From Treponema sp. (GTDB taxonomy: Bacteria; Spirochaetota; Spirochaetia; Treponematales; Treponemataceae): a stretch of DNA of 64,000 bases. Location: positions 15,562 to 79,561 of the forward strand of contig JBJETJ010000032.1 in the NCBI GenBank assembly GCA_051883255.1, written 5' to 3'. A program made the translations under genes and the position numbers. Under the pieces are notes generated by a model that ran no database searches, was not told the origin of the DNA, and was given only the letters and a program-made list of their open reading frames with translations. Position 1 is the first letter of the stretch; each line of letters begins with the position of its first letter. Shown here one piece after another: positions 1,560 to 24,086 of the stretch.

Positions 1560-1561
1560 AT

Positions 1562-2755: not shown

Positions 2756-3789
2756 TAACCAAATTAACACTTAAGAACTTCAAATCTTTCTTAGAAAGAA
2801 CGATAGATTTTTCTCCTCTAACTGTCCTTACTGGTATGAATGGCGCTGGAAAAAGTTCTGTTATCCAAGCAATTCGAATGATTCAGAAAAGCTGTGGCGA
2901 TGGACAAGGAAATCCAATTCTTGATGATCATGTTATGCCTAATCAGTTAAAAACAAAACTTACAAAAGATGACTTTTACTTACTTTCATTTATTAAAGAT
3001 GGAAATACATATACAACAGAAGTAAATGAAATAGAATCTGATTCTTATGGTTTTGCAGCTGATGATGGTCACAGAAAAAATGAACTTACTTGTATTTCTT
3101 ATCTTTCTGCAGACAGATATGGTCCAAAAAATCAGCTTCCTGCTGGAAATACGAAAGAAATAAGTGATGTTGGAAATCTGGGTGAATTTGTAATTTCTTT
3201 TCTCGATAAATTCCAATATTCAAAGGTTCCTGAAAAATTACGTCTAAATTCAGATGATGAAAACCTTTTGGACAATACTAATTCATGGCTCAAGGTTATT
3301 TCGAAAGACTCTCTTTTAACTTACGAAAAAAATCAATCACAAAACGTTTACTATCCATTTTATAATGGAATTGTACCTAGTGAAACTGGCTATGGTTTAA
3401 GTTTTACGCTCCCTGTTATTGTTTCACTTTTGTTTACAGATGATAAAAATGTTGAACGCATTTTGTTGATTGAAAATCCAGAAGCACATCTTCATCCAGC
3501 AGCACAAACTGCTTTAGGAAAATTAATTGCTTTGGCCGCAGCAAATGGGAAACAAGTGATTATAGAAACTCATAGTAACCACATAATAGATGGAATTCGT
3601 ATTGCTGCTAAACAAGGAAATATAAAAGCTTCGGATGTAAAATTCCATTTCTTCCGTCGAGATAGTTTTGAAGAAGAATCTACTGTAGAAACACCAGAAT
3701 TGTATCAAGATGGAAAACTTTCTTTCTGGCCAGAAGGCTTTTTTGACCAGGGATTAAAAGACAAAGCTTTGCTTGCGAGGAAAATGTAA
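2752..3789 (+). CDS. ABC-like ATPase with C-terminal DUF3696, Menshen NsnB-like
   Basis: Walker A LTGMNGAGKSS, signature GYGLS, Walker B LLIENPEAHLHP, H-loop IETHS, C-terminal WPEGFFDQ. Confidence 0.85.
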   Translation: MITKLTLKNFKSFLERTIDFSPLTVLTGMNGAGKSSVIQAIRMIQKSCGDGQGNPILDDHVMPNQLKTKLTKDDFYLLSFIKDGNTYTTEVNEIESDSYGFAADDGHRKNELTCISYLSADRYGPKNQLPAGNTKEISDVGNLGEFVISFLDKFQYSKVPEKLRLNSDDENLLDNTNSWLKVISKDSLLTYEKNQSQNVYYPFYNGIVPSETGYGLSFTLPVIVSLLFTDDKNVERILLIENPEAHLHPAAQTALGKLIALAAANGKQVIIETHSNHIIDGIRIAAKQGNIKASDVKFHFFRRDSFEEESTVETPELYQDGKLSFWPEGFFDQGLKDKALLARKM

Positions 3790-4523
3790 TGACTGATTTT
3801 GTTTTTAATTCGGCATCCATACCTCTGACAGATAAAACTTTGGCTCAGAGTACAACTGACGACGTTTTTCTTGCACTAACAAATTATATTGGAGATAATG
3901 CCAAGCCTAAACTCTTTTTTGCTTCTGAACTAGATGATATTTTTCTTGCAGAAAACTTTTCATTTCAGAATTATAGTGATGATTTAATTACTCGAAACAG
4001 AGAACTAGCAGACTTTATATCAGAGTTTGGAGAATATTTTTCGACTTTTAAGACTAGTACAGTTTTTCAACAAAAAACAGTAAAAGTTGGCGATGATACT
4101 AGATTTTCCGATGATGACTCTTTGAAATATGCATGTTTGAACAACAATATTCTTGTAAGTGTTTCTGAAGAGCATATTTGGCAAAGAAACAGAATAAAGT
4201 TTTGTTTAATTGATAATGTCAAAATCGAGTATGAACTTTACAACTTGTTTTCCTCAGATTTTTCATATTTACCTATTGAGTTACCACCATTTTCACTTTC
4301 AGATAAAACTCGATTTAGAAAAACAAATTTTTTTCATGAAAAACAAGCGATTTATCAAGATCTGCAAACAGGATATTACTGGTATAACGACTATTTTCAC
4401 AAAGATAATAAGGCTCACTTTGAAGTCTTTGACAAAACAGGTAATCACATAGCAGAAGCAAGTATGTCTGGAACAATAGATTATTCCAAAGCCGACAGCA
4501 ACAAACATATTCAAGTAAATTAG
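3789..4523 (+). CDS. Putative effector, Menshen NsnC-like, with possible colicin-E3-type RNase C-terminus
   Basis: Third gene of the DUF262/DUF3696 triplet with stop/start overlap. C-terminal WYNDYFH...HFEVFDKTGNHIAE resembles the colicin E3 cytotoxic domain pattern (W-D-x-x-H...E...G-x-H). Assigned by eye. Confidence 0.5.
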   Translation: MTDFVFNSASIPLTDKTLAQSTTDDVFLALTNYIGDNAKPKLFFASELDDIFLAENFSFQNYSDDLITRNRELADFISEFGEYFSTFKTSTVFQQKTVKVGDDTRFSDDDSLKYACLNNNILVSVSEEHIWQRNRIKFCLIDNVKIEYELYNLFSSDFSYLPIELPPFSLSDKTRFRKTNFFHEKQAIYQDLQTGYYWYNDYFHKDNKAHFEVFDKTGNHIAEASMSGTIDYSKADSNKHIQVN

Positions 4524-4541
4524 ATTATAGGAGCCACAACA

Positions 4542-7442: not shown

Positions 7443-7466
7443 ACTGTAAATAAGGAGAAAAAAAAT

Positions 7467-10106: not shown

Positions 10107-10122
10107 ATAAGGTAAGGTTCAT

Positions 10123-11604
10123 ATGGAATCTATTGAGGCTAAAATCAAAGAACTTAATGCTTACCCGACTGAACGAGAATGGTTTGAGTTCAAGCAAAAC
10201 TGGTTTGACAAAGACCAGTTGGGACAATATATTTCAGCACTTTCAAATAGTGCTGCATTTGAAGGAAGAAGAGAGGCATATTTTGTTTGGGGAATACACA
10301 ACAAAAGTCATGATATCGTTGGAACAAATTTTGATCCAAATTGTGATATTGATAATGAGCCGCTAAAACATTACCTTTCACGGCAACTGGAACCTAAGAT
10401 TAATTTTTCTTTTGAAGAAGAAGTAATTGAAGGAAAGAAAGTTGTTCTTCTTACTATACCTGCTGCAAAGACTGTCCCTGTTGCCTTTGCAAATGAACGC
10501 TTTATAAGAATTGGAAGCAGTAAGGAGAACCTTAGAAAATATCCAGAAAAGGAATCATATTTGTTTGATGTTTTAAGGCATGGACTTCCGACTATAGAGA
10601 ACACACCATCACAGTATCAGGATTTAACCTTTGAAAAATTACTTATTTATTATGGTGCAAAAGGAATCAGACTGAACGAGGAAACATTTAAAAAGAATCT
10701 AGGTTTTTACACCTACGACGGAAAGTATAATATTCTTGCTCAACTGCTTTCTGATAACTCACATTTTGTGCAAAGAGTTGCTATTTTTGGTGGAAAAACA
10801 AAAACAGCGCCTTTGATTTCTGTCCGTGAATTTGGTTTACAATGTATTCTTTATACGCTTGATGAAGTGCTTCGTTATGGGGATGTGTTAAATATTATTC
10901 AGGCAGATGAGCGAAACAGGATTGTTGAACGAAAAGAAGTCGCGCTTTTTGAAAATGATGCATTCCGTGAAGCTGTGATAAACGCTTTTGTACATAACCG
11001 GTGGGTTGATGGAAATGAACCTATGATAAGTGTATTTTCTGACCGAATAGAAATTTTATCACATGGTCCCATTCCACCAGAGCAAACAATTGAAGGCTTT
11101 TTTGCCGGGGTCTCAATTCCTGTAAACAAAAAACTGTCAGAAATATTTTTACAATTGCATATAAGTGAAAAAACTGGTCGTGGTGTTCCAAAGATTGTAG
11201 AAAAATATAACAAGGGAGCATATTCTTTTACAGATAATTATATAGTCGTTACAATTCCTTTTAAATGGATTAATTCTGTGGGCTGGAATGTCGAACCAGT
11301 TGGCGGTGTTGTTTCAGGTGGAAATTATACACCAAAAATTAGGGAAACCCCAGATAAGTTCGATAAAAATACAGAAAGTTCGATGAAAAGTTCGATGAAA
11401 AGTTCGATGAAAATCATCGAACTTATGAGGTTAAATTCGATGATAACGGCTGTAGAACTTTCGTCAATATTAAAAATTTCTAAACGTGCAGTTGATAAGC
11501 AGATCCAAAATTTACGAGAATCAGGTAAACTTCGTCGTATCGGTCCAGATAAGGGCGGATATTGGGAAATAATAGATACAGATGAAATTTCGGAGGAAAA
11601 ATAA
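10123..11604 (+). CDS. Schlafen/AlbA_2 domain + HATPase-like + C-terminal HTH protein (RecG-like 'ATP-binding protein')
   Basis: EREWFEFKQN...ISALSNS (AlbA_2), FREAVINAFVH, EKTGRGVPKI, C-terminal wHTH ending LRRIGPDKGGYWEI. Confidence 0.85.
   Translation: MESIEAKIKELNAYPTEREWFEFKQNWFDKDQLGQYISALSNSAAFEGRREAYFVWGIHNKSHDIVGTNFDPNCDIDNEPLKHYLSRQLEPKINFSFEEEVIEGKKVVLLTIPAAKTVPVAFANERFIRIGSSKENLRKYPEKESYLFDVLRHGLPTIENTPSQYQDLTFEKLLIYYGAKGIRLNEETFKKNLGFYTYDGKYNILAQLLSDNSHFVQRVAIFGGKTKTAPLISVREFGLQCILYTLDEVLRYGDVLNIIQADERNRIVERKEVALFENDAFREAVINAFVHNRWVDGNEPMISVFSDRIEILSHGPIPPEQTIEGFFAGVSIPVNKKLSEIFLQLHISEKTGRGVPKIVEKYNKGAYSFTDNYIVVTIPFKWINSVGWNVEPVGGVVSGGNYTPKIRETPDKFDKNTESSMKSSMKSSMKIIELMRLNSMITAVELSSILKISKRAVDKQIQNLRESGKLRRIGPDKGGYWEIIDTDEISEEK
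11375..11410 (+). repeat. 12-bp in-frame tandem repeat (AAAGTTCGATGA)x3 encoding SSMK
   Basis: Three exact copies read directly from the sequence, in the linker before the HTH. Confidence 0.95.
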
Positions 11605-13500
11605 ATGAGCGCAAACAATAGTATTTGCTTAAAATCAGTCTATGACCTGCTTGATATGAATTTTTTTATTCCTGATTATCAACGAGGGTACCGCTGGTCT
11701 CAAAATCAGGTAACCGACTTATTAAATGATATTTATTCCTTCGCTTCCAAAAAAGGAAAATCAGATGAAGAGTTTTATTGTCTCCAGCCTATTGTTGTAA
11801 AAAAATGCAATCAAGAAACCATGGATAAATATAATTTAGTTGATGGATTTGGAGACAATACTTGGTACGAAGTTGTTGACGGGCAGCAACGATTAACTAC
11901 TATAAAAATCCTTTTTTTATATCTTCTGAAGTATCATTTAAAAACTGATTCATTAAAGCAAGATTATAGAAAAGAACTGTTTAAAATAAAGTATGCAACT
12001 AGACCAAATTCAGAAGAATTTTTAAATTCACTAATTAAATCTGACCATCAGAAAAATTCTGAATATATAGATTATGATTATATAGATAATGCATATTCAT
12101 ATATTGATAACTGGATAAATACAAATACAAAAGATTTACCAGGAAAAGTACGAGCTACACTTTTTGATCCTTTAGTAAACACTAAAGATAATCAAACAGA
12201 AAGAGGAACAATTCAAGTAATCTGGTACGAACTTGAAGAATCAGAAAACTCAATTGATACTTTTACTCGTCTTAATATTGGAAAAATTCCTCTTACAAAT
12301 GCTGAACTTATAAAAGCCTTATTTCTTCAAAAAAGTAATTTTACAGAAGCAGAAGTGGAACCACGACAGAGTGAAATTGCTTTGGAATGGGATAGAATTG
12401 AATACGCATTGCAAAATGATGAATTCTGGTATTTCTTGAATGAAGAAATAAATGATACACCAGCAAGAATTGAGTTCATTTTTGATGTAATGTATAAAAT
12501 TGCTTGTAAAAAAGCCCCTGGACTTCTTGATAAATTTGGAACCGATAACGATAGAACTTTCAGATATTTTGCTTACAGAATATTGGAAGAAAAAGGTAAA
12601 GTTACAGAAATTTGGGCAAAAGAAGTAAAAGCCTTTTTTAATACATTTGAAGAATGGTTTACTGATTCAGTTTGGTATCACTATATAGGGTTCTTAATTT
12701 ATTGTGGTGTTGATATTGTTACTATTTATGATTTTTATAAAGATAAACCAAAAGATGAATTTTTGGCAAAGATTAAGGAAAAGATAAGAGAAAATGTACC
12801 TGTTAAATATAAGATTTTGAAAACACCTGATAACACAAAAGAATATGATGTAAAACTTAGTTATGATAACAACAAAACTCTTTTAAGAAAAGTTTTATTA
12901 CTATTAAATATTGAATACATCGTAAAACAGGAAGAAAAGACTTATATAAGATTTCCTTTTGACCGTTTCAAAAAAGAATCTTGGGATATAGAACACATTG
13001 ACTCTTTTACAGAAAACGATATGAATGATAGAGCATAACAAAAAATGTGGCTAACAGATTCTGTTTCTGTATTAGAAGATGACGAAAAATGTAAGGATTT
13101 AGTAAAACAAATCAATGAGTTCCTTGAATCTTTTGATGAAGCAAAAAATGCAAAAGATAAATTCTTAGAATTCAGGACTTCTATATTACAAGCTGTAGGA
13201 GAACAAGTTTCTGAAAATTCTGAAGATGAAAAAAAATCTATTGGAAATCTAACTTTACTTGATGCAGGAACAAATAGAAGTTACGGAAATGCTTTGTTCC
13301 CTGTAAAACGAAAGACAATAATAGAAAAAGATTCTCACGGACAGTTTATTCCAATATGTACTAAGTATGTATTTTTAAAGTACTTTAACAAAGGTGGAGC
13401 TTCAATTTCCAGATGGAATAACACGGACATAAAATCATACAGAAACTTTGTTGTAGAGACTCTCGCTAACTTCTTTATTTTAGAAGGAGGAAATAACTAA
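11605..13500 (+). pseudogene. GmrSD-like DUF262-DUF1524(HNH) gene interrupted by a single in-frame TAA at 13036-13038
   Basis: PDYQRGYRW, VVDGQQRLTT, FTRLNIGKIPLT (DUF262). The HNH motif WDIEHID lies before the stop and SIGNLTLL...NRSYGN after it, in the same frame (AGA GCA TAA CAA AAA ATG TGG). Confidence 0.85.
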
Positions 13501-15848
13501 TGAATAAAAAATATAGCTTTTATGATTTGCTTACACAAACAATACTTATAGAAGAAAACAACACAGAAAAGGAAATTACAATAAACAAACTTGAAATTCC
13601 AAGGATTCAACGAGATTATGCCCAAGGAAGAAGAATTAATGATAAACTCCTATCTGGTACAAGTTTTTTAACAGCTATTTTTGATCATTTAGAAAACGAT
13701 ACAGAAATGGAAATGGACTTTATTTACGGAGCTGTACATCTTGGAAAATTTGAACCATTGGATGGACAGCAAAGACTTACAACTTTATTTTTGCTCCATT
13801 GGTATTTCGCAACAAGAGAATTTGAAAAGGAAGATTTTGAAATCTTTGCCAAAAAGCTTAAGAAATTTACTTATGAAACCCGAGCTTCTTCACGTATGTT
13901 CTGTGAAAATCTTTGTGAACAACAATTGAATATTCGAACTCAACTACCTGTTGATGTTATTACTAATGCTCACTGGTTTTATAAATCTTATCATAAAGAT
14001 CCAACAATTCAGGCAATGTTGAATATGATTGAGCAAATTGATGAATTGTATAAAAAGCTTGATGATAGTATTTCATATTTTCCACGATTAAATAAATTGC
14101 ATTTTTATATTTTACCCCTTAATAATTTTAATCTTACAGATGAGCTTTATGTGAAAATGAATGCTCGTGGTAAACCACTTACACATTTTGAAAATTTCAA
14201 AGCTGACCTAACAAAATGGATGAAAGCTGGAGATAACCCTTACTGTGCAGATTATTATGCAAAAGTTAAATACGGTGAAAGCAAAACAGAAATTGAACAT
14301 TTTTCAAAAATAAGTTTAGAGCTGGATAACAAATGGACAGATACAATTTGGAATCTTGTAAAAGATTCTGATAAAAAAGTTGATAAACGTTTTATGATGC
14401 TGTTCAAAAGATATTGCCTTGGGAAATATCTTGCTTATACAGACATAGAAGGAAAATCTTTGACATCCGACCCTGTATATAAATATTTCACTGGCAAAGA
14501 AGACACTTATTCTGTCTTTAATGAATTTAAATCTATCTTTGATAATTCTGAAGAGAATGTACTTTTTTCTTTTGAGCGTTTTTTCAACCAATACTCTGAG
14601 AATGTTGAAGTAATAACAAAGGATATACAACCAAACTGGCAATATTGGCAGGAAAAGAAAGGTGGAGAAAAGATGGAATATTCAATCTTTTCTCCAAAAT
14701 TCACTTCAAAAGATAGAATTGTATTTTTTGCAATGGCACGTTATCTGGAATTATTTGATTATAATCAAAAACAATTCAAAGAGTGGATGAGAATAGTTTG
14801 GAATATTACACTTAATACAGATATTAATGATGCGGCAGCTTTTGGTCGTGCAATTAAATTAATAAATGAATTATCTGTAAAAGGTGATAAAATTTATTCT
14901 TTCTTAGCAGATGAGAATTCTGTTATTGTTCTTCATTCATCTGAAAAAGCCATAAGAGAAGAAAGAATAAAAGCTTCATATATTTGCAAAGATAATACTT
15001 GGGAAAATATTTTCATTAATGCAGAAAAACATCCTTTCTTTGAAGGCTCAATTACTTTCCTGCTTACAGAAAATATGACACAAGAAGAGTTTAATCATAG
15101 ATTTGATATGGCTTCATTTATCTTTGATGATAACGGAATTTCATCAAATTACAGAAGGAATGGTCACATCCTTTTACGAGCTCTAATTAGTAATTATGAT
15201 TCTTTTGAAAAGTTTAAAAATGGAAATGGAAAAGGTAGAAGTTTTTACACAGATAAAGATGAAAAAGAGCATTATTTGAAAAAAATGCTTGTTAATGACC
15301 AGTATGTAATCGATGCTCTTATTCGATATTGCAATCAGCCTTCTCAAGATAAAATTCTTGAAATGTTAAAAGCTGATATACAACGACCTTCTTTGATTGC
15401 AAAAAAAGCAAAGGAAACTGGTTCTACTGAACTTGAAATAAGAAAAAAAGCCTTTGCACATGAAGCCTTATATAAGACAGAAACACTCCAGAATTGGATG
15501 CAAGAAGAATCAAGGCAGGCAACAAGATTCCAACATTCATATAACAGCTTAAATGTTTCAAGACCTATGGCACATTATGATTGGGTAATGTTAGATCCAA
15601 TACGCAGTGATGTTTGTAAATTTTTAATTGAAAATGGATATGAAACAACACAACGGTTAGATGATTCTGATTACTTCTGGGGATTCGATATTGAACTGGT
15701 CAATTCTAAAAAGAAATTGACAATTGAAGTAAAATGGGAAGGCACGTTTGAAGTTTATAAAGATAATAAAATTAATAATCTTTTAGACGGATTAAATTAC
15801 CTTAATAACGAAAAAATTATTGATGAATTAAAAGCTAAATTAGCATAA
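13500..15848 (+). CDS. Second DUF262 (GmrSD-like) protein
   Basis: IPRIQRDYAQGR, PLDGQQRLTTLFLLHWY, YVKMNARGKPLTHFENFKA; TAATG overlap with the upstream gene. Confidence 0.85.
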   Translation: MNKKYSFYDLLTQTILIEENNTEKEITINKLEIPRIQRDYAQGRRINDKLLSGTSFLTAIFDHLENDTEMEMDFIYGAVHLGKFEPLDGQQRLTTLFLLHWYFATREFEKEDFEIFAKKLKKFTYETRASSRMFCENLCEQQLNIRTQLPVDVITNAHWFYKSYHKDPTIQAMLNMIEQIDELYKKLDDSISYFPRLNKLHFYILPLNNFNLTDELYVKMNARGKPLTHFENFKADLTKWMKAGDNPYCADYYAKVKYGESKTEIEHFSKISLELDNKWTDTIWNLVKDSDKKVDKRFMMLFKRYCLGKYLAYTDIEGKSLTSDPVYKYFTGKEDTYSVFNEFKSIFDNSEENVLFSFERFFNQYSENVEVITKDIQPNWQYWQEKKGGEKMEYSIFSPKFTSKDRIVFFAMARYLELFDYNQKQFKEWMRIVWNITLNTDINDAAAFGRAIKLINELSVKGDKIYSFLADENSVIVLHSSEKAIREERIKASYICKDNTWENIFINAEKHPFFEGSITFLLTENMTQEEFNHRFDMASFIFDDNGISSNYRRNGHILLRALISNYDSFEKFKNGNGKGRSFYTDKDEKEHYLKKMLVNDQYVIDALIRYCNQPSQDKILEMLKADIQRPSLIAKKAKETGSTELEIRKKAFAHEALYKTETLQNWMQEESRQATRFQHSYNSLNVSRPMAHYDWVMLDPIRSDVCKFLIENGYETTQRLDDSDYFWGFDIELVNSKKKLTIEVKWEGTFEVYKDNKINNLLDGLNYLNNEKIIDELKAKLA

Positions 15849-15860
15849 AGAGGAAATATT

Positions 15861-18704
15861 ATGGCACTTAAAGCATGGCGAGAAATTGTAATTCCACACG
15901 ATGATGTTTTGAATGGTACTTCAACTCAGTCAGAATTTGCAGCTGATTTGAATTCTGTTGCTTCTGGAAAAGCAAGCGTAGAATATCAGGATGCAGAAAC
16001 CTTTTATAGCAGAACTTACATTACAGCAGGTATGTCTCTTTTGCTTAAGAATGTAATTATGCGTCTTAATGAAAAAGGTGGTGAGCCTGTTATCCAATTA
16101 AAAACTTCTTTTGGTGGTGGTAAAACACATTCTATGATTGCTGTATATCACTTGGCTAAAAGAATTTGTCCTCTAAATAATTTACAAGGAATTCCTGCGT
16201 TAATTGATACTTTGGAATTCAGTGATATACCACAGGCAAATGTTGCGGTAATTGACGGAAATAATTTAAGTCCAGGGCAACCTTGGATACGTGGAAAATA
16301 CCAGATTCAAACTTTGTGGGGTGAACTTGCCTGGCAGCTTGGTGGAGAAGAAGGATATAAACTTTTAGAGGAATCTGATAAGAACAAAACTTCTCCTGGA
16401 AAAGATTTGCTTGCATCTATTTTCACAAAATATGGGCCATGTGTTATTTTGGTGGATGAGTTATTGGCTTTTATTCGCCAGCTTATTGGTAATGATAATC
16501 TTCCAGCAGGAACTTTTAATAGTAATATTTCCTTTGTACAGGCATTAACTGAAGCTTGTAAGGTTGTTCCGAATTGTATTTTACTTGCTTCATTGCCGGA
16601 GTCTGAAGCAGAAGTTGGAAACGATGAAGCAAAAGAAGCATTAGTCGCACTTGAAAAATATTTCGGTCGTGTACAAGCCATTTGGAAACCTGTTGGCACT
16701 GAAGAATCTTTCGAAATTGTAAGAAGACGTTTATTTAAGGAAATAACTGACGAAAAAGCAAAAAAAGAAGTATGTAGAGCTTTCTTTGATATGTATCGTT
16801 CTGAAAATAAAATGCTACCTTCAGAAACTCAGGAATCGGCATATCTTGAAAGATTAGAACGTGCATATCCAATACATCCACAGTTGTTTGACTGTTTATA
16901 TGAAGAATGGGCAACTCTTGAAAAATTCCAGAAAACAAGAGGAACGCTTAAATTGCTTTCTACAGTCATTGCTTCTTTGTGGAAACAGAATAATACAGAT
17001 TTATTTATTCTCCCTTCAAGCATTCCTGTTTCAGACGGAAAAGTTGCTACAGAATTATGTGCTGTACTTAATGGTAATGGTTGGGAACAGGTTATTACAA
17101 AAGATATTGATGGCGATAATTCAGAAAGTTCAAAAATAGATATGGGAGATCCAAGAATTGGAAAATATCTTTGCGCTAAAAAAGTATCTCGTTCTATCTT
17201 TATGAAAACATCTCCAATTGCAAATGAAATTAGAACAAATTCTCATTCTGCACAAACAGCTAAGGGAGTTGCTTCTGATTATATTTTGCTTTGCTGTTTA
17301 CAGCCAGAACAGAATTCAGCTTTGTATATTGATGCCATCAAAAAGATAGCAGATAAATTACACTATTTGAATATTAGCGGAAGTGACGAAGGGGCTGATA
17401 AACGCTATTACCGTTTTGCAACCACTGCAAATATGCGTAAAGAACTGGAAGATAGATGTAATCGAATTAAAGATAACGACCCTAAACTTTTAGAATTATT
17501 AAAAGATATTTTACAAAAACTTTCTGATCAGAAAACATTGTTTGATTACATTCATCGTTTCCCAGACAGCTCTGAAATTCCTGATGATGAATCTTTGAGA
17601 TTAATTTACTTGAGTCCATCACAATTTTATAGTTCAACGGAAAACTTTGAATATGCTGAGAAAGCTGTAACTAATTTTGTTAAGAATTGTGGTTCAAATT
17701 TACGAATACATCAAAATAGACTTATATTTGTTGCACCTGAAAGTAAAACTTTAAACGCTGTTGAACAAGCAGCTAAAAAATACATAGCTTGGGAATCTAT
17801 CATAGATGATGCAAAAAGTGGTTGCATAAACCTTGATATGTATAATATGAAAAATGTTCAAAATGATTTTGATGCAGTGAAAAAAGCATTATCAAGTCAG
17901 GTACAGAATTGCTGGAAACATTTATTTGTACCATTTCAGTTACCAGGTGAAACGGATTTTACTATTGAGCATCTTTCTATCAACAATAATGATCTATTCA
18001 TTAAATCAATTGAAACAGCTTGTAAAGAAAATGAATATGTTATTCAAAAATGGGGACCAATACATTTAAATAACATATTAAAAACTGTTTATTGGAATAA
18101 CAGTAATGAACCTGTGGCTATTTCAAAATTCTGGGAAGATTCAACAAGATACATTTATTTTTCACGTTTACAAAAAAAACATGTTCTTTATGCAACTGTA
18201 ACACAAGCTTCTAGCGCTTCTGATTATTTTGGTCTTTCTGATGGTATTGGAAATAATGGAAAATTGACGGGATTGTCTGTTGGTAAACAAGTTGATTTTA
18301 TTACAGATGAAACATTGATTGTTCCATTAGATGTTGCTAAAGCAGTAATTGATGCTGAAAAAGCAGCACATCAAACTCCAACAGCTACAACTACAGGTGA
18401 TACTGTAAAACCTCCAACAATTGGTTCTGGAGTACAAACAGGAGGAACAGCACCAAGCCCAATATCAACTCCTAAAAAGAGTCATTTTTATTTTAATCAG
18501 AAAATCCAATTCGGTGAATTGGCAATTAAGGCTAACAAAATTTACGATGAAATTATTTCAGTTTTGAATCAATCTCCTGATGTAAATTTAGATGTTCATA
18601 TTTCTATTGATGCGCATTTTTCTGACGGAGCTGACGAAAAAATTGTACGAGATGTTTCTGAGAATTTAAGAACTCTCAATATGAATCCTGGAGAATGGAG
18701 TTAA
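15861..18704 (+). CDS. DUF499 AAA+ ATPase
   Basis: LKAWREIVIPHDDV...EFAADL N-terminus, Walker A FGGGKTHS, Walker B ILVDEL, YPIHP and FQKTRGTLKL motifs. Confidence 0.9.
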   Translation: MALKAWREIVIPHDDVLNGTSTQSEFAADLNSVASGKASVEYQDAETFYSRTYITAGMSLLLKNVIMRLNEKGGEPVIQLKTSFGGGKTHSMIAVYHLAKRICPLNNLQGIPALIDTLEFSDIPQANVAVIDGNNLSPGQPWIRGKYQIQTLWGELAWQLGGEEGYKLLEESDKNKTSPGKDLLASIFTKYGPCVILVDELLAFIRQLIGNDNLPAGTFNSNISFVQALTEACKVVPNCILLASLPESEAEVGNDEAKEALVALEKYFGRVQAIWKPVGTEESFEIVRRRLFKEITDEKAKKEVCRAFFDMYRSENKMLPSETQESAYLERLERAYPIHPQLFDCLYEEWATLEKFQKTRGTLKLLSTVIASLWKQNNTDLFILPSSIPVSDGKVATELCAVLNGNGWEQVITKDIDGDNSESSKIDMGDPRIGKYLCAKKVSRSIFMKTSPIANEIRTNSHSAQTAKGVASDYILLCCLQPEQNSALYIDAIKKIADKLHYLNISGSDEGADKRYYRFATTANMRKELEDRCNRIKDNDPKLLELLKDILQKLSDQKTLFDYIHRFPDSSEIPDDESLRLIYLSPSQFYSSTENFEYAEKAVTNFVKNCGSNLRIHQNRLIFVAPESKTLNAVEQAAKKYIAWESIIDDAKSGCINLDMYNMKNVQNDFDAVKKALSSQVQNCWKHLFVPFQLPGETDFTIEHLSINNNDLFIKSIETACKENEYVIQKWGPIHLNNILKTVYWNNSNEPVAISKFWEDSTRYIYFSRLQKKHVLYATVTQASSASDYFGLSDGIGNNGKLTGLSVGKQVDFITDETLIVPLDVAKAVIDAEKAAHQTPTATTTGDTVKPPTIGSGVQTGGTAPSPISTPKKSHFYFNQKIQFGELAIKANKIYDEIISVLNQSPDVNLDVHISIDAHFSDGADEKIVRDVSENLRTLNMNPGEWS

Positions 18705-18726
18705 AGCAATTTAAAAAATTGTTTTT

Positions 18727-19002
18727 GTGGAGACAGACATTATGACATTTGAACAAGTTGAATTGGAATTAAAGAAGATTTTTGATAAAGCTACTGCAGC
18801 TGGCAAAACTGAAATTATTCTTGTTTCTAAAGAATTCTTTGACCAGATGGAAATAAAACCGGAATACCGTGATTGCATTCCGATGTGTTGCCGCGTTATG
18901 AAAAATAATATAAAAGAAGGTATTGATGAAGTTCTTTATCATACTCCTTCATGGCAGAGTCATACTTTGAAAATTAAGTATAAGTTACCAAGGAAAACTT
19001 GA
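18727..19002 (+). CDS. Small hypothetical protein with IPMCC.VM motif
   Basis: GTG start 22 bp after the DUF499 stop, same strand; 91 aa, ends KIKYKLPRK. Confidence 0.6.
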   Translation: METDIMTFEQVELELKKIFDKATAAGKTEIILVSKEFFDQMEIKPEYRDCIPMCCRVMKNNIKEGIDEVLYHTPSWQSHTLKIKYKLPRKT

Positions 19003-19134
19003 TAATACCGGTAATTCTTGGTTTCTTTATTTTTTTTGATTTCACAATCCAGTTTTGACGGATATAATTATCACAAAAAAGAAACAAAGCAGGCTGAACA
19101 TGATAAAAAGAAAAATGAAATCTTCGATATAATT

Positions 19135-19380
19135 GGATTGACGCTTCTTCGTTTAAGTACAAACGGCTCTGGGAAAGAGAAAAAAATTAAAGAACAACTG
19201 GATAAGTATTTCCCTCTCTAGTCCCCATTAAAAGAACAAAAAGAAATTGTGGCTCGAGTGGAAAAACAATTACAAAAAATCTCTGAACTTGAAGCACAAA
19301 TCACCGACCAAGAAAAACTGGCAAATTTGCTTTTTCAGTGTATAATGAAAAATAATTTTAATGATAATGTGAGATGTTGA
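19135..19380 (+). pseudogene. hsdS: Remnant of a type I RM specificity subunit (HsdS C-terminal conserved helix)
   Basis: Reading through TAG at 19219-19221 gives YFPL*SPLKEQKEIVARVEKQLQKISELEAQITDQEKLANLLFQCIMKNNF, matching the HsdS PLPPLxEQxxIV...helix pattern. Confidence 0.7.
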
Positions 19381-19383
19381 TTT

Positions 19384-20415
19384 ATGGAAATTATTATGAC
19401 AAGTTTATTTAAAATTGATTTAGAATCGGAACAGTGTAATGAAGAGGATTTTTCAGATAAGCAAAATATTCAAAACTATCTTGATGAGTTGCTAGATACA
19501 ATAGTTTCTAGTTCGTGTGATAGAGAATATGAATTTGATGAAACTTTGATAACAACAAAAAGCAAAATACTTTCAATATTAAAAAATCTTAATGAACAGA
19601 CTAAACAAAATGAATGTATGTTTCTTGCACAGAAATTGTTGTCTATAGAATTAGATGTTCAAAAGAAAATTCAGAAATTAAATGTCGAGATTCAAAAAGG
19701 CATATTGGTAATTGCAGCCCTAAAGATAACTGATACAGATTATAAGTTCATCATTACAAAAGCAGATTATGCGGAATTTGTCGAAGAAATAACAGGAAAT
19801 ACAAAGAGCGGATTGCCATTAAAAAAGAAAATATTTAAATCTTTTATCGCCGATATTAAGTATATAAACAATGATTATACATTCCAAAGAGTAGTAACTT
19901 ATGATTCCAACATAAATCATTCTGTATATTGGTGGAAATCTTTTCTTGAGTTAAAAGAATTAAGAGATAATACAACAAATACAAGAAATGCTTTTGAATT
20001 AATAAATAACAATGTTTTGGCACCCTTACAGAAAGATTATAAATCTGATTATATAAAACTTTGGAATTCAACAGTTGCTTACTTTCGAATGAAAGGTGAA
20101 TTTGACATTAACTATTATGCAGAAAACGTAATAGGAAATTACACACCATATGATGTCTCATTAGAAATGGAGCAGCTTAAAAGTAAAATAAATGGTTTAA
20201 AAGAGAGAAATAAGTTTGATAATAAATTTGAGAAAGATCCTTCATCTATAACAAAAAAAATGAAAAAAGAATTGAAATTGACAAATGAAATTGATTTGAT
20301 TATAAAACAAGATATTCCAAATTTATCTTCAATAATCAAACCAAAAGAAGAAGATGGAAAAAAGTATATTATGGTATTAAGTACAGAGGGGTATGACTAT
20401 GCCAAAGGACTGTGA
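19384..20415 (+). CDS. Soluble hypothetical protein, possibly nucleoid-associated (NA37/YejK-like) fold
   Basis: 343-aa AT-rich ORF with YWWKSFLELKE motif; overlaps the next gene by 23 bp. Family call is recollection only. Confidence 0.5.
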   Translation: MEIIMTSLFKIDLESEQCNEEDFSDKQNIQNYLDELLDTIVSSSCDREYEFDETLITTKSKILSILKNLNEQTKQNECMFLAQKLLSIELDVQKKIQKLNVEIQKGILVIAALKITDTDYKFIITKADYAEFVEEITGNTKSGLPLKKKIFKSFIADIKYINNDYTFQRVVTYDSNINHSVYWWKSFLELKELRDNTTNTRNAFELINNNVLAPLQKDYKSDYIKLWNSTVAYFRMKGEFDINYYAENVIGNYTPYDVSLEMEQLKSKINGLKERNKFDNKFEKDPSSITKKMKKELKLTNEIDLIIKQDIPNLSSIIKPKEEDGKKYIMVLSTEGYDYAKGL

Positions 20416-21952
20416 AACCTATATACATCCTATTTGTGACTATTTTATCCATCTTTTTTCAGATACTTCCCATCCTATATCTATTGAAGAAGATTTTGAT
20501 TCTGTAAAATATAAATGGGATTTTATTAAGAGTGAAAAAATATTACCACAACAACTAACATGCCCCAAAATTGTCTCTAGAGATTCAATTTATTTAAGTT
20601 TAATTTATGATGATAATCTTATTACTTCATATAATTCTCAAAGTGAAGATGCAATTTGGGAAAATATAATTAATGCGTATGATTCTTATGATATTGGTAC
20701 TAATTTTAGTATTGAATTATCTATTTCAAAAAAACTTGAAAACAATCATATTTCTATATATCAGATAGATTCATTTATAAACTACTTAGCAAAATGTGCA
20801 TTATTGGATTTTCTTTCGATGTTTAGTAAAAAACTTAAGCCATATATTATTTTTGAATTGCAAAATATTGAACCGTTTTTTTTCTATTCACAAAGTATCT
20901 TCTTTCTATCACAAAATATAGATATTTCACAAGTAAAAATATTTGATAATAAAAAAAAAGAAAAAATTCTTAAGCAAGAGAAGGATTTGTGCTGTCATGA
21001 TTGCCCTAAATTTGAATTAATCCCTGATGATTTCTATTTTTTTAATTGTAATAATACTAAAATAAAACAGTTGTTTGATAAAATTTTGATATTTTTATGT
21101 TTTTTATCGATTTTTGATTATATAAAACTTGATAAAAAGTTATTCTCATTTCGATTAAATGGTTTTAAACTTTTAAAAAATGATTTTAATACAGACACAA
21201 TTGAAAATTTCTCTATAGATACTCAAAATAACCATGAATTATACGAAATATATAGATGGATTTATACAGATGGAAATGCTTCTGATAAACTTGATATCTC
21301 AAGAAATATTCTTTCAATAAATTTAAATCAAAATTTATTGAAACCAGAGCCGAATATATTTGAGGCAATAAAATCAAATTATAGAATTTTTCAAAAAGAA
21401 AATGCTGAAAGATATCTTTCCGTAAGAAAAGAGATATCTGAATTACTTATAACTTTGCAAGGAGAAATAAATTCTATTGTCAGTAATTTTATAGATGACT
21501 TTAAGAAAAATATTGTTACAGTTCTTTCTTTGTTTATATCTGTAATTGTAATAAATGTTATTTCAAATGGTAATTTTATAAAAGGTTTTAATAACGATAT
21601 TATTTTATTGATTTTTGCTTTTTTGTTAATTTCTCTAGGATATTTATTTTATTCAAGATGGGAGTTGACTCAAAAAACAAAGTTATATGAAAAACATTAT
21701 AATCAAATAAAACAAAGATATAGTAATATTCTGTCGGAAATAGAATTGCAGGGAATATTTGATGACTGCAATCCTGATAGCGATGGTACTCATGCATCTT
21801 TTAGTAATAAACAACGACAATTTTACAGTGTTTTATGGTTTCTATCCTTGCTTATATTATTTTTTACTACATTGGAAATATATAACTACAACAATGGATA
21901 TGGTTCATATATTTTAAATTTATTTAGATATAGATTTTCTAATCATTGTTAA
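20393..21952 (+). CDS. Hypothetical protein with large soluble N-terminus and three predicted C-terminal TM helices
   Basis: 519 aa; hydrophobic stretches IVTVLSLFISVIVINVI, IILLIFAFLLISLGYLFY, FYSVLWFLSLLILFFTTL. Confidence 0.65.
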   Translation: MTMPKDCETYIHPICDYFIHLFSDTSHPISIEEDFDSVKYKWDFIKSEKILPQQLTCPKIVSRDSIYLSLIYDDNLITSYNSQSEDAIWENIINAYDSYDIGTNFSIELSISKKLENNHISIYQIDSFINYLAKCALLDFLSMFSKKLKPYIIFELQNIEPFFFYSQSIFFLSQNIDISQVKIFDNKKKEKILKQEKDLCCHDCPKFELIPDDFYFFNCNNTKIKQLFDKILIFLCFLSIFDYIKLDKKLFSFRLNGFKLLKNDFNTDTIENFSIDTQNNHELYEIYRWIYTDGNASDKLDISRNILSINLNQNLLKPEPNIFEAIKSNYRIFQKENAERYLSVRKEISELLITLQGEINSIVSNFIDDFKKNIVTVLSLFISVIVINVISNGNFIKGFNNDIILLIFAFLLISLGYLFYSRWELTQKTKLYEKHYNQIKQRYSNILSEIELQGIFDDCNPDSDGTHASFSNKQRQFYSVLWFLSLLILFFTTLEIYNYNNGYGSYILNLFRYRFSNHC

Positions 21953-21957
21953 GGATT

Positions 21958-22050
21958 GTAGGGGCGCAAAGCGTTCCAAAACGAAGTGTAGGAATGGAGC
22001 GATAGCGAAACCCCGAAAAGCCCGACCCGAACGAAGTGAGGGGAACACCA
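21958..22050. other. GC-rich, purine-skewed non-coding segment at the right edge of the AT-rich island
   Basis: Abrupt composition change straight after the 21952 stop (gtaggggcgcaaagcgttcc...cccgacccgaacgaagtgaggggaacacc), with cgaagtg repeated twice. Confidence 0.4.
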
Positions 22051-22080
22051 AAAAAAATACAGATAAAAACACAAATCTCA

Positions 22081-22340
22081 ATCCGTAGTTCTGCTGCGGA
22101 GTACCTTACTTTTGTTGCGGCTACAGGAGATGACAAGAACTGTATTGAAGTTCGTTATGAGGACGAAAATATCTGGATTACGCAGAAGAGGCAACTATTC
22201 AAAATTTTCGAATAGTTCAAACCGAAGGAACAAGGCAAGTTTCCCGGGATGTGGAACATTATAATCTTCAGATGATTATCGCAGATGGCTTTACGGTGAA
22301 CTCGGAAGGCGCTGTCCAGTTCATCATCAGTATAGCCTGA
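22081..22340 (+). pseudogene. RhuM-family (virulence RhuM) gene remnant with internal deletion/frameshift
   Basis: IRSSAAEYLTFVAATGDDKNCIEVRYEDENIWITQK, then a frame change at ~22190 to ATIQNFRIVQTEGTRQVSRDVEHYNLQMIIA.GF.VNS..AVQF; both blocks are typical RhuM segments. Confidence 0.8.
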
Positions 22341-22359
22341 ACTCAAACTCCCCCCCCCC

Positions 22360-22959
22360 TCACACCCCCGTCAAATCCTCCTCCAGCAAACTCAAATCCG
22401 TAACCGCATTCCGCCTGAACCTCGTCACGTGCTCTTCAAGGTTCTTCATCACAGTTTCAGAATCTGCGCCTGTCGTATGGTACATAAAAAACGGCGCGTA
22501 CAAATCCATTGCGTAGACCTCAGGCGTTCCTGCTTTCATATAGCCGAGTGCAATCAGCTGTTCAAACATTGCCGACATCGACTGAACAGGGCCGTCAATA
22601 AAAATCTGCCTGTATATTTTTTTCATCTCCGGGTTTTTAAACTGTTCAATCAAAAGCAGCTGGCGGAATTTTGTAATCCATTCATCTGTAGTCTGATACA
22701 CAAACATTCCCATACAGATTTTTTCGACGTCTTTCCATCGGAGCGTTTCAAGCTTTACTTCCGACTGTTTGTCCTGCAACCGCGTCATGCACACATTTAC
22801 AATGCAGTCTAAAATTTCCTGCTTGCTTTTAAAATGCTTGTAAATCACCGCATCAGACGCGTTTATGCTTCTTGCAATCATTCGCGTAGACACGGCATCA
22901 AAACCGTTGACCGAAAAAAGTTTCAGCGATTCAAAAATAATATTTTCTTTCGTCGTCAT
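22360..22959 (-). CDS. TetR/AcrR family transcriptional regulator
   Basis: MTTKENIIFESLKLFSVNGFDAVSTRMIA...AVIYKHFKSKQEI HTH; start at 22959 overlaps the upstream stop (ATGA). Confidence 0.9.
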   Translation of the reverse strand: MTTKENIIFESLKLFSVNGFDAVSTRMIARSINASDAVIYKHFKSKQEILDCIVNVCMTRLQDKQSEVKLETLRWKDVEKICMGMFVYQTTDEWITKFRQLLLIEQFKNPEMKKIYRQIFIDGPVQSMSAMFEQLIALGYMKAGTPEVYAMDLYAPFFMYHTTGADSETVMKNLEEHVTRFRRNAVTDLSLLEEDLTGV

Positions 22960-24086
22960 ACCAATTCTTTTGAACCCATAATTATTTTTCTTGTGTCTTT
23001 GCCTGCCATACAGCCGTAAGTACACGCACCGCAGCCGATACATTCATTCACGTTGAGCGCTTTTGCCGCTTGCGCCGTCAGTTCATTTTTTTCTGCAAGC
23101 CCGACTACTTTACAAACTTCAACTTTTGCAGGACAGTTTCTGCTGCAAGCTCCGCATCCCCTGCACTTTGAAGCGCCCTCGTAATCTGGCGCGTTGCCGA
23201 GTGCAATGTAGCCTGTTTCTTCGGTGACAGTTTCGCCGTTTTCTGCCTTGTGACTAAAAAGTGCGCCCGAGCCTGTGTAAAGCGTTTTGCCTTTGCGCTG
23301 TTCAATGCTGAACAACTCAGACGCGATTTCTTCAACAGAGTCCCCCACTGTCACTCTGGTAACTTTTGCCTCCCCTTCCGTGATGTCTGCGACCGTAATG
23401 TATTTTTTGCGGCACGAGAACTCGTCGTCAAACGCTTCCCTTATTGCAAGCACTGTCTGAATATTCAAAACAAGAATTCCACATTCAGACGGAAGCTTTG
23501 ACTTTGGGATTTCTTTTCCTGTTACGGCTTTAATGAGGAAGTTTTCGTAGCCGACAGGAAAGCGGTCTGCAACTTTTATCTGGGTGACGTTCAGGGTTGT
23601 GTCGAGAGGTTCTTTTGTTGCAAGGATTACATGCTGAATTTTGAGCGCCTGTTTTACAAGTTCAATTCCTTCAATGACTGTATCAATGCGGTTTCTGTAA
23701 ATCCAGCCGTCGTGGACAAGACCCGGATCACATTCTGCGCCGTTTACGATAAGAAGCCCGTCCTCTGAATTAAAGCTTTCAAGTTTTTTGTACGTTAAAA
23801 ATCCGTTGCCGCTTTTTCCGGTGAGAGCCGTTTTTTTGCAAAGTTCAATTAACTGCCCGCGCGTAACTCCGCCAGGTGAACTTATCAAAGGCGCTTTGTC
23901 CTCTGTCCTAAACTCCTGAAACGCAATGTCGTCAAGACGTGCAATTTTTTTAATCCGCGCTTTCGGGCAATTCTTTGCGCGTTCAAACAATTTTGTCTGA
24001 AAATGCTTTCCTGCTTTTTTCTGTGCAAGCTTGAGTTTCTTATTTGAAGAAACCATTTTTTTGTTTATGAGGCTTATATTTTCCAT
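22956..24086 (-). CDS. RnfC-like iron-sulfur flavoprotein (Complex I 51K domain + SLBB + 2x 4Fe-4S)
   Basis: LTGKSGNGF, IVNGAECDPGLVHD, YP-like FPVGYE, C-terminal CRGCGACSRNCP and CIGCGACTYGC. Confidence 0.75.
   Translation of the reverse strand: MENISLINKKMVSSNKKLKLAQKKAGKHFQTKLFERAKNCPKARIKKIARLDDIAFQEFRTEDKAPLISSPGGVTRGQLIELCKKTALTGKSGNGFLTYKKLESFNSEDGLLIVNGAECDPGLVHDGWIYRNRIDTVIEGIELVKQALKIQHVILATKEPLDTTLNVTQIKVADRFPVGYENFLIKAVTGKEIPKSKLPSECGILVLNIQTVLAIREAFDDEFSCRKKYITVADITEGEAKVTRVTVGDSVEEIASELFSIEQRKGKTLYTGSGALFSHKAENGETVTEETGYIALGNAPDYEGASKCRGCGACSRNCPAKVEVCKVVGLAEKNELTAQAAKALNVNECIGCGACTYGCMAGKDTRKIIMGSKELV

What the first reader, a model, noticed from the sequence alone, without database searches (positions are those of the whole stretch)
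19384..21952. Unassigned two-gene module (soluble protein + 3-TM protein) at the distal end of the defence island - candidate new anti-phage system
Seen: two overlapping, very AT-rich ORFs (343 and 519 aa) with no motif I can tie to a named system. The second has a large soluble region (WIYTDGNASDKLDISRNILS motif), a coiled segment and three terminal TM helices. Known: Kiwa pairs a TM protein with a soluble DNA-interacting protein, and many defence systems use TM effectors. Inference: a sensor (possibly NA37/YejK-like, DNA-binding) plus a membrane effector. This is the best candidate in the island for an undescribed system.
Basis: inference. Interest (0 to 1): 0.75.

Follow-up and report, generated by a model that had tools for sequence, protein, structure and literature searches.

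The report
Diverged YejK-like sensor plus membrane effector
Two overlapping genes at the end of a Treponema defence island encode a very diverged relative of the chromosome-coating protein YejK and a three-helix membrane protein; the pair always travels together and looks like an untested variant of the "PANGU type II / DS-1" anti-phage suicide systems described in 2025-2026, so it is not a new kind of system.

Summary
Gene A (19384-20415, 343 aa) and gene B (20393-21952, 519 aa) are real, overlap by 23 nt, have 23-27% GC and are under purifying selection.

- **Gene A.** It is a cryptic NA37/YejK-like protein. The Pfam NA37 model misses all 33 relatives tested, but profile-profile comparison with true NA37 proteins gives 96% probability over the full length.
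- **Gene B.** It has an acidic ~320-aa cytoplasmic domain, a long stalk helix and three TM helices. No family model matches it.
- **Linkage.** A sits directly upstream of B in 50 of 50 informative loci, across Bacteroidota, Bacillota, Spirochaetota and viral contigs. Their divergences are tightly correlated (Mantel r=0.94).
- **Context.** Neighbours are rich in restriction-modification (RM) genes, recombinases and other defence genes. Only 1 of 151 genomes of the host's family carries B.
- **Known relatives.** The architecture matches type II PANGU (Pag2A nucleoid protein plus Pag2B transmembrane effector) and DS-1, both shown experimentally to be anti-phage. B shows no detectable homology to DS-1B.

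Verdict: a probable abortive-infection module, a new variant of a known kind.

The parts
19222..19377 (+). Remnant of the 3' end of a type I restriction specificity gene (hsdS), directly upstream of gene A
   Evidence: tblastn with T. ruminis HsdS residues 385-429 of 431 matches window 19225-19359 (53% identity, E=9e-7). In T. ruminis an intact hsdS sits 9 nt upstream of the orthologue of A. Coordinates.
19318..19346 (+). Promoter-like site (CTGGCA-17-TATAAT) about 38 nt upstream of the start of A; weak evidence only
   Evidence: 10 of 12 consensus matches. The number of such sites in this AT-rich stretch equals the shuffle expectation (23 found, 23.2 expected), so function is not shown.
19384..20415 (+). 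Gene A: 343-aa soluble, very diverged NA37/YejK-like nucleoid-associated protein; the proposed DNA-bound sensor
   Evidence: ORF. No TM segment. AF2 pLDDT 85. Pfam NA37 misses 33 of 33 family members. BLASTP to the PF04245 protein L003:11520-12560 gives E=5e-11. hhalign of the A family against six NA37 proteins gives probability 96%, E=4.9e-9, residues 25-331. dN/dS 0.11.
20393..21952 (+). Gene B: 519-aa membrane protein; the proposed effector
   Evidence: ORF. 1390 clusters at 50% identity match the family profile. AF2 pLDDT 83. dN/dS 0.19.
20393..21352 (+). B residues 1-320: acidic mixed alpha/beta cytoplasmic domain; the candidate docking or DNA-mimic domain for A
   Evidence: Net charge is -12 here and -4 to -24 in 28 of 28 family members, with pI 4.4-5.8. 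Secondary structure. No PDB fold match.
21257..21316 (+). Conserved motif WIYTDGNASDKLDISRNILS, the family signature in B's N-domain
   Evidence: Invariant W289, D298 and K299; nearly invariant R304, N305 and S308. Coordinates.
21356..21508 (+). B residues 322-372: long stalk helix leading into TM1
   Evidence: AF2 shows one continuous helix over 322-392.
21509..21568 (+). TM helix 1 of B (residues about 373-392)
   Evidence: Kyte-Doolittle segment 369-423; AF2 helices.
21593..21655 (+). TM helix 2 of B (residues about 401-421), followed by cytoplasmic helices at about 423-466
21818..21886 (+). TM helix 3 of B (residues about 476-498)
   Evidence: Kyte-Doolittle segment 476-498; AF2 helix 467-500.
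21947..22057 (+). About 110-bp intergenic repeat element immediately after B's stop codon
   Evidence: blastn finds 83% identity to L001 14217-14327 and 80% to L001 504-577, both in T. ruminis. There is a single copy in the window.
22141..22337 (+). Frameshifted, truncated remnant of a rhuM gene downstream of B; it marks the decayed distal edge of the island
   Evidence: The joined translation hits Pfam Virulence_RhuM at E=6.5e-11 with 42.4 bits, above the 33.7-bit cut-off. An intact rhuM lies downstream of B in T. ruminis. Coordinates.

Best explanation
A and B form a self-contained, horizontally mobile two-gene abortive-infection module of the 'nucleoid-associated-protein sensor plus membrane effector' kind, like PANGU type II and DS-1.

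Shown here:
- A is a remote homologue of NA37/YejK.
- B is a membrane protein with an acidic cytoplasmic N-domain, a stalk helix and three TM helices.
- The genes overlap, are always adjacent in the order A then B, and co-diverge.
- Both are under purifying selection.
- They are sporadically distributed and ride in restriction-modification (RM) loci, mobile elements and viral contigs.

Inferred by analogy with PANGU:
1. In uninfected cells A coats chromosomal DNA and is kept away from B.
2. When a phage degrades or remodels the host chromosome, A is released.
3. Free A binds the acidic N-domain of B in place of DNA.
4. This activates the three-helix membrane module, by oligomerisation or opening.
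5. The membrane depolarises or becomes permeable, and the infected cell stops supporting phage growth.
For: - **Homology of A to NA37.** BLASTP gives E=5e-11 against a protein that scores 1.6e-38 on PF04245. hhalign gives probability 96%, E=4.9e-9, over 278 collinear columns. The A-family HMM hits canonical NA37 genes at 1e-9 to 1e-12. NCBI and UniRef already name some relatives 'nucleoid-associated protein'.
- **Architecture of B.** AF2 model with pLDDT 83. Three TM segments, and an acidic N-domain in 28 of 28 relatives.
- **Obligate pairing.** A lies directly upstream of B on the same strand in 39 of 39 genome loci and 11 of 11 viral contigs that have upstream DNA. Gaps run from -17 to +42 nt in the loci where both genes are intact.
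- **Co-divergence.** Mantel r=0.937, with 0 of 2000 permutations reaching it.
- **Selection.** dN/dS is 0.11 for A and 0.19 for B.
- **Context.** The pair sits inside a type I RM locus in T. ruminis, after an MmeI-like RM gene on a relaxase-bearing element next to Cas9, and at the end of an Hma/Nsn island here. Among 140 flanking proteins the commonest families are serine recombinases, NA37, N6_Mtase, ResIII, Eco57I, type IV restriction enzymes, mad2, PbeA and TnpV.
- **Sporadic distribution.** 1 of 151 genomes of the host's family carries B. The pair has low GC.
- **Precedent.** In type II PANGU both genes are required, plaque counts fall by 3-4 logs, the phenotype is abortive infection, the Pag2B N-domain binds Pag2A at 19 nM, and Pag2A leaves the nucleoid on T4 infection. 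DS-1 is a validated pair of an NA37 protein and a 404-aa protein with C-terminal TM helices.
Against: - There is no experimental evidence for this family.
- A is so diverged that the Pfam NA37 model misses it: 0 of 33 relatives and 0 hits in the window's own genome at E<=10. DNA binding is therefore assumed, not shown.
- B has no detectable similarity to DS-1B: hhalign probability 0.5% full length, 3.5% for the C-terminal halves and 0.6% for the N-terminal halves.
- An acidic N-domain is weak evidence for DNA mimicry.
- No solved structure matches either model, so the NA37 fold of A was not confirmed structurally.
- Seven Bacteroidales loci carry an additional canonical NA37 gene after B. That raises the possibility that A is an adaptor and not the DNA sensor.
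Confidence: 0.6

Rival explanations
1. The pair is a mobile-element module with a function other than anti-phage defence. Examples are tethering element or chromosomal DNA to the membrane, an addiction (post-segregational killing) device, or exclusion of competing plasmids and conjugative elements.
For: Serine recombinases, TnpV, a relaxase and viral contigs are frequent neighbours. NA37 proteins bind DNA, and a membrane partner could in principle anchor DNA. Nobody has tested this family.
Against: The most frequent functional neighbours are RM and other defence genes. The pair is nested inside a type I RM operon in T. ruminis. Both experimentally tested pairs of an NA37 protein and a TM protein were anti-phage and non-toxic in the absence of phage.
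Confidence: 0.2
2. A and B are accessory subunits of the neighbouring restriction-like system (Hma here, type I RM in T. ruminis) and have no function alone.
For: They are co-oriented with the 19-kb Hma/Nsn gene string. In T. ruminis they sit between hsdS and hsdM. An hsdS remnant directly precedes A here.
Against: The flanking system differs from locus to locus: type I RM, MmeI-like RM, no RM in Paludibacter, and phage contigs. A and B stay constant throughout. Hma models are not among the 25 most frequent PADLOC families in 140 neighbours. Here the flanking hsdS and rhuM have decayed while A and B remain intact under purifying selection. A 380-nt gap separates the last upstream ORF from A.
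Confidence: 0.08
3. It is a Kiwa-like system, with a membrane sensor of phage attachment and a soluble DNA-binding effector. The roles would then be reversed: B senses and A acts.
For: Like Kiwa, it pairs a membrane protein with a soluble, probably DNA-binding protein. The PANGU authors themselves leave open how Pag2A engages Pag2B.
Against: No PADLOC model of any kind, Kiwa models included, matches A or B at E<=1. No Pfam DUF4868 hit. The gene order and the TM position (C-terminal anchor after a large soluble domain) match Pag2B and DS-1B.
Confidence: 0.04
4. The pair here is a non-functional relic carried along with a decayed type I RM / rhuM locus.
For: Both flanks are gene remnants, and the pair sits at the very edge of the low-GC island.
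Against: Both ORFs are full length, align end to end with relatives, and show dN/dS of 0.11 and 0.19.
Confidence: 0.03

Closest known systems
Type II PANGU (Pag2A + Pag2B; e.g. PANGU-Ecu from a uropathogenic E. coli), Li et al., bioRxiv 10.64898/2026.04.06.716658 (April 2026)
   Same: It is a bicistronic operon. The first gene encodes a YejK/NA37-like nucleoid-associated protein. The second encodes a protein with an acidic N-terminal cytoplasmic domain and a C-terminal transmembrane region. It is linked to RM and other defence genes and is spread across phyla.
   Different: A is far more diverged than the NAPs that study could have collected. Its census used an HMM built from IPR007358 proteins at E<1e-10, and the Pfam NA37 model misses 33 of 33 A relatives here. 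Homology of B to Pag2B could not be tested because no sequence is held. This family has no experimental data. Seven Bacteroidales loci add a canonical NA37 gene after B. That layout resembles the untested 'Cluster4' of the paper (two hypothetical proteins upstream of the core NAP); this last point is my inference.
DS-1 (DefensePredictor; DeWeirdt et al., Science 2026, PMC13092281): WP_000355468.1 (NA37, 391 aa) + WP_000150292.1 (404 aa)
   Same: An NA37-domain protein gene is followed 2 nt later by a gene for a protein with a soluble, mildly acidic N-domain, a helical stalk, a TM hairpin, about 60 aa of cytoplasmic helices and a last hydrophobic helix. The system was validated as anti-phage in E. 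coli.
   Different: B and DS-1B show no detectable sequence similarity in profile-profile comparison (probability 0.5-3.5%). DS-1A scores 1.2e-23 on the Pfam NA37 model and carries an N-terminal zinc ribbon; A does neither. The DS-1B family is gammaproteobacterial. The B-family loci recovered here lie in Bacteroidota, Bacillota and Spirochaetota.
NA37 / YejK / NdpA family (Pfam PF04245)
   Same: A shows full-length collinear remote homology, including the conserved Y-W-x-x-x-F-L block (A residues 182-190).
   Different: A does not reach the curated Pfam threshold. It is mobile and sporadic, not a core chromosomal gene. The host genome has no canonical NA37 at all.
Kiwa (KwaA + KwaB)
   Same: It is a two-gene defence system that pairs a membrane protein with a soluble DNA-interacting protein.
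   Different: There is no sequence relationship. Kiwa's membrane protein is a small multi-TM sensor, not a large soluble domain on a C-terminal anchor.

Membership tests
PANGU type II (Pag2A/Pag2B) | The first gene encodes a YejK/NA37-like nucleoid-associated protein | tested here: met
   The homology is remote but significant: BLASTP E=5e-11 to a PF04245 protein, and hhalign probability 96%, E=4.9e-9, over 278 columns. Caveat: the Pfam NA37 model itself misses all 33 relatives.
PANGU type II (Pag2A/Pag2B) | Bicistronic operon of a NAP gene followed by an effector gene | tested here: met
   The genes overlap by 23 nt here. A precedes B in 50 of 50 informative loci, with gaps of -17 to +42 nt where both genes are intact.
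PANGU type II (Pag2A/Pag2B) | The effector has a C-terminal transmembrane region | tested here: met
   Three hydrophobic helices at about 373-392, 401-421 and 476-498.
PANGU type II (Pag2A/Pag2B) | The effector's N-terminal domain is an acidic DNA mimic (DMK) that binds the NAP | tested here: inconclusive
   The N-domain is acidic in 28 of 28 relatives, with net charge -4 to -24.
PANGU type II (Pag2A/Pag2B) | Sequence homology of the effector to Pag2B of PANGU-Ecu | not testable with these tools
   The preprint text gives no sequences or accessions and no supplements are held.
PANGU type II (Pag2A/Pag2B) | Anti-phage abortive infection that needs both genes, with the NAP leaving the nucleoid on infection | not testable with these tools
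   These are experimental criteria.
PANGU type II (Pag2A/Pag2B) | Genetic linkage to known defence systems | tested here: met
   An Hma/Nsn/GmrSD/STAND island lies upstream here. RM loci and Cas9 flank the pair elsewhere. RM and defence families lead the tallies among 140 neighbours.
DS-1 (DefensePredictor) | Homology of the membrane partner to DS-1B (WP_000150292.1) | tested here: not met
   hhalign of the B family (28 sequences) against the DS-1B family (30 sequences) gives probability 0.5%. The C-terminal halves give 3.5% and the N-terminal halves 0.6%.
DS-1 (DefensePredictor) | The partner gene encodes an NA37-domain protein | tested here: inconclusive
   DS-1A hits PF04245 at 1.2e-23. The A profile against the single DS-1A sequence shows nothing. 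A does match an NA37 alignment that includes DS-1A.
Pfam NA37 (PF04245) | Score above the curated gathering threshold of the family model | tested here: not met
   0 of 33 A-family members reach E<=0.01. There are no hits in the own genome at E<=10. Only superfamily-level homology is supported.
Kiwa | Homology to KwaA or KwaB (DUF4868) | tested here: not met
   No PADLOC hit at E<=1. No Pfam hit.
SLATT 2-TM effector domain | Match to a SLATT model over the TM region of B | tested here: not met
   Only SLATT_4 appears, at E=0.18 with 11.7 bits against a 55-bit cut-off, in 2 of 28 relatives. This is noise level.
Hma system (HmaA/B/C) | Constant association with Hma genes | tested here: not met
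   Three homologous loci inspected gene by gene carry no Hma gene. No Hma model is among the 25 most frequent PADLOC families in 140 neighbours.

The most novel reading that the evidence does not exclude
The A-B family would be a third, independent lineage of membrane effectors triggered by a nucleoid protein. Its sensor has diverged so far from NA37 that HMM-based censuses, including the PANGU one, cannot see it. Such systems would then be considerably more common in Bacteroidota, Bacillota and Spirochaetota than reported. The Bacteroidales three-gene form (A, B, then a canonical NA37) would point to a two-NAP mechanism. In that mechanism the cryptic NA37 (A) is a dedicated adaptor or gate for the effector, and the canonical NA37 reads out chromosome integrity.
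Probability: 0.35. Interest if true: 0.6.

Novelty: new variant of a known kind. Interest (0 to 1): 0.45.

Why it matters
If the pair works as proposed, sensing of chromosome damage by nucleoid proteins extends well beyond the NA37 proteins that family models can recognise. It would reach gut and rumen anaerobes and their phages. It would also add an effector family of about 1400 clusters at 50% identity with no annotated domain. The cryptic NA37 gives a concrete warning that HMM-threshold censuses under-count this class. The three-gene Bacteroidales form offers a natural experiment on what the NAP does. None of this changes the concept established by PANGU and DS-1.

Tried and rejected
- **Foldseek, both AF2 models against the PDB.** No hit at E<=0.001. 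No NA37 or Pag structure turned up in the copy searched.
- **Foldseek, A against BFVD.** One unnamed hit with TM 0.27-0.32, uninformative.
- **Sequence profiles of A and B against PDB chains.** Nothing.
- **tblastn of B against GenBank phages and PLSDB plasmids.** No match.
- **The search for related loci with the full 28-sequence alignment.** It failed for lack of a conserved stretch. It worked with a narrower alignment.
- **SLATT relationship of B's TM module.** Rejected.
- **Weak Pfam DUF2207_C hit.** E=0.0017 with 18.6 bits against a 33-bit cut-off, in 3 of 28 relatives, over the coil and TM region. Treated as compositional.
- **Rfam scan of 18600-22500.** Nothing credible.
- **Promoter and terminator scan.** No more sites than in shuffles.
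- **Homology of B to DS-1B.** Tested three ways and rejected.
- **Search for PANGU-Ecu sequences or accessions in the preprint.** None are held.
- **Accessory gene of Hma or of type I RM.** Considered and rejected because the flanking system varies between loci.
Full report
**1. Observation**

Gene A is 19384-20415 (+, 343 aa) and gene B is 20393-21952 (+, 519 aa). They overlap by 23 nt, or by 17 nt if B starts at the ATG at 20399 that the public gene call uses (P0001). A GAGGGG run lies just upstream of B's start.

GC is 0.267 for A and 0.233 for B, against 0.41 for the rest of the window. This is the AT-richest tip of a low-GC island that covers about 1-22000.

Upstream, PADLOC models identify the following genes:
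- HmaA
- NsnA, NsnB and NsnC
- HmaB
- an NB-ARC/TPR STAND protein
- a Schlafen-AlbA_2/HATPase_c_4 protein
- a split GmrSD gene
- a second GmrSD_N protein
- HmaC

The quoted motif is at B residues 289-308 and is the most conserved block of the family.

**2. What the proteins are**

Neither protein hits Pfam, NCBIfam or PADLOC above noise. Each matches one PHROG of unknown function over its full length.

Gene A has 61 close relatives in the word-indexed search, and a few are named 'nucleoid-associated protein' by NCBI or UniRef. The Pfam NA37 model nevertheless misses all 33 aligned relatives and finds nothing in the whole host genome at E<=10.

The link to NA37 comes from a third gene downstream of B in the Bacteroidales loci. 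That gene is a bona fide NA37 (PF04245, E=1.6e-38).
- Window A matches it by BLASTP at E=5e-11.
- The A-family HMM hits four such genes at 1e-9 to 1e-12.
- hhalign of the A alignment against six NA37 proteins gives probability 96%, E=4.9e-9, over 278 collinear columns. These cover A residues 25-331 and NA37 residues 35-340.

A is therefore a cryptic, full-length NA37/YejK homologue. It has no TM segment, and its AF2 model is confident (pLDDT 85).

The AF2 model of B (pLDDT 83) shows four parts:
- a mixed alpha/beta domain over residues 1 to about 320
- one continuous helix over 322-392, which is stalk plus TM1
- TM2, followed by cytoplasmic helices
- a last TM helix

Hydropathy agrees with this layout. 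The N-domain is acidic in all 28 aligned relatives, with net charge -4 to -24. A profile search of 1.84 billion representative proteins finds 1390 clusters at E<=1e-3 and 816 at E<=1e-30, nearly all about 500 aa long. No solved structure resembles either model.

**3. Linkage and context**

I recovered 41 genome loci from Bacteroidota, Bacillota and Spirochaetota and 11 viral contigs.
- **Adjacency.** A lies immediately upstream of B on the same strand in every locus with upstream sequence: 39 of 39 genome loci plus 11 of 11 viral contigs. Gaps run from -17 to +42 nt where both genes are intact.
- **Co-divergence.** Pairwise divergences of A and B across 37 intact pairs correlate at r=0.937, and 0 of 2000 permutations reach that value.
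- **Selection.** Against the T. ruminis orthologues (83.6% DNA identity), dN/dS is 0.11 for A and 0.19 for B.
- **Distribution.** Only 1 of 151 genomes of the host's own family has B, and that one is the window's genome.

Contexts vary while the pair stays constant:
- In T. ruminis the pair is nested between hsdS and hsdM of a type I RM locus that also carries Fic, DUF4427 and RhuM genes.
- On a relaxase-bearing element beside Cas9, it follows an MmeI-like RM gene.
- In Paludibacter it lies among housekeeping genes, followed by the third NA37 gene.

Among 140 proteins taken as the two genes on each side of 37 loci, the commonest families are these:
- Pfam: Resolvase and Recombinase (7 each), NA37 (6), N6_Mtase, ResIII and Eco57I (5 each), DUF3427, TnpV, AAA_21 and AAA_15
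- PADLOC: mad2, type IV restriction enzymes, type I and II methyltransferases, PbeA

This is the signature of mobile, defence-associated cargo. I could not compute a formal enrichment against a background set.

**4. Local history**

Homology to T. ruminis starts at A's first codon and ends at B's stop.
- Immediately upstream, at 19222-19377, lies a remnant of the last about 45 codons of an hsdS gene (E=9e-7).
- Downstream, at 22141-22337, lies a frameshifted rhuM remnant (Pfam E=6.5e-11).

This matches the T. ruminis order hsdS, A, B, rhuM. The pair therefore arrived as part of a type I RM-nested locus whose flanks have decayed. A and B stayed intact. That argues against their being dependent accessories or relics.

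**5. Mechanism**

Two studies establish the kind of system.

*PANGU* (bioRxiv 10.64898/2026.04.06.716658):
- YejK-like NAPs bind the chromosome without sequence specificity.
- They are released when phage nucleases degrade host DNA.
- They then bind a DNA-mimicking (DMK) domain on the effector.
- Type II pairs the NAP Pag2A with Pag2B, which has an N-terminal acidic DMK domain and a C-terminal TM region.
- Both genes are needed, the phenotype is abortive infection, and the Pag2B DMK domain binds Pag2A at 19 nM.

*DefensePredictor* (PMC13092281):
- It validated DS-1, an NA37 protein followed by a 404-aa protein with C-terminal TM helices.

By analogy, I propose this sequence for the window's pair. 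A coats DNA and is freed when the chromosome is damaged. Free A docks on B's acidic domain. Docking triggers B's three-helix membrane module to collapse membrane integrity. The homology, architecture and linkage are shown here. DNA binding, A-B binding, the trigger and the membrane damage are inferred.

**6. Membership**

The architecture meets the PANGU type II definition. The DNA-mimic feature is only weakly supported, by acidity alone. Homology to Pag2B cannot be tested because no sequence is held.

Homology to DS-1B was tested and not found:
- profile against the single DS-1B sequence
- profile against profile, probability 0.5%
- the two halves separately, 3.5% and 0.6%

The two effectors still share the same layout: soluble domain, stalk, TM hairpin, cytoplasmic helices and a last hydrophobic helix. 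Kiwa, SLATT and an Hma accessory role were each tested and not met.

The PANGU census required NAP HMM hits at E<1e-10. Because of that threshold, A-B pairs without the third gene were probably invisible to it. The three-gene Bacteroidales form resembles that paper's untested 'Cluster4', described as two hypothetical proteins upstream of the core NAP. Both statements are my inference.

**7. Verdict**

This is a real, conserved, mobile two-gene module and most likely an abortive-infection system of the NAP-sensor plus membrane-effector kind. The concept is known. These protein families are uncatalogued and untested, so I class it as a new variant of a known kind, of moderate interest.

Noticed in passing
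window 19222-19377: A remnant of the last about 45 codons of a type I RM specificity gene (hsdS) lies directly upstream of gene A. It matches the arrangement in Treponema ruminis, where an intact hsdS precedes the orthologous pair.
   Followed up: yes
window 22141-22337: A frameshifted, truncated rhuM (Virulence_RhuM, Pfam E=6.5e-11) remnant lies downstream of B. An intact rhuM follows B in T. ruminis. The island's distal edge is therefore a decayed type I RM / rhuM locus.
   Followed up: yes
window 21947-22057; L001 14217-14327 and 504-577: A repeat element of about 110 bp lies right after B's stop codon. Two copies with 80-83% identity sit in intergenic regions of T. ruminis. It may be a Treponema REP- or MITE-like element at the recombination boundary.
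   Followed up: partly
L003 11520-12560; L009 7478-8572; L010 7197-8258; L011 1800-2837; L012 4719-5759; L014 2644-2916; L025 5796-6827: In Bacteroidales, Paludibacter and Prevotella loci the A-B pair is followed, often with overlap, by a third gene. That gene is a canonical NA37 (PF04245, E about 1e-33 to 1e-38 where scanned). These loci therefore encode two NA37-type proteins flanking the membrane protein.
   Followed up: partly
whole genome G000: The host genome has no match to the Pfam NA37 model at E<=10. The diverged gene A is its only NA37-like gene.
   Followed up: yes
window 114-18704: The Hma genes (HmaA, HmaB, HmaC) are interrupted by other defence modules in one co-oriented string: NsnABC between HmaA and HmaB, then an NB-ARC/TPR STAND protein, a Schlafen-AlbA_2/HATPase_c_4/HTH protein, a GmrSD split into N and C ORFs, and a second GmrSD_N protein before HmaC.
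   Followed up: partly
window 22350-22359: A C10 homopolymer tract lies between the rhuM remnant and the 3' end of the convergent TetR-like gene (22360-23043, minus strand).
   Followed up: no
window 18727-19002 and 19018-19221: Two small ORFs (91 aa and 67 aa) lie between HmaC and the hsdS remnant. Neither has a family match. It is unclear whether either is a gene.
   Followed up: partly
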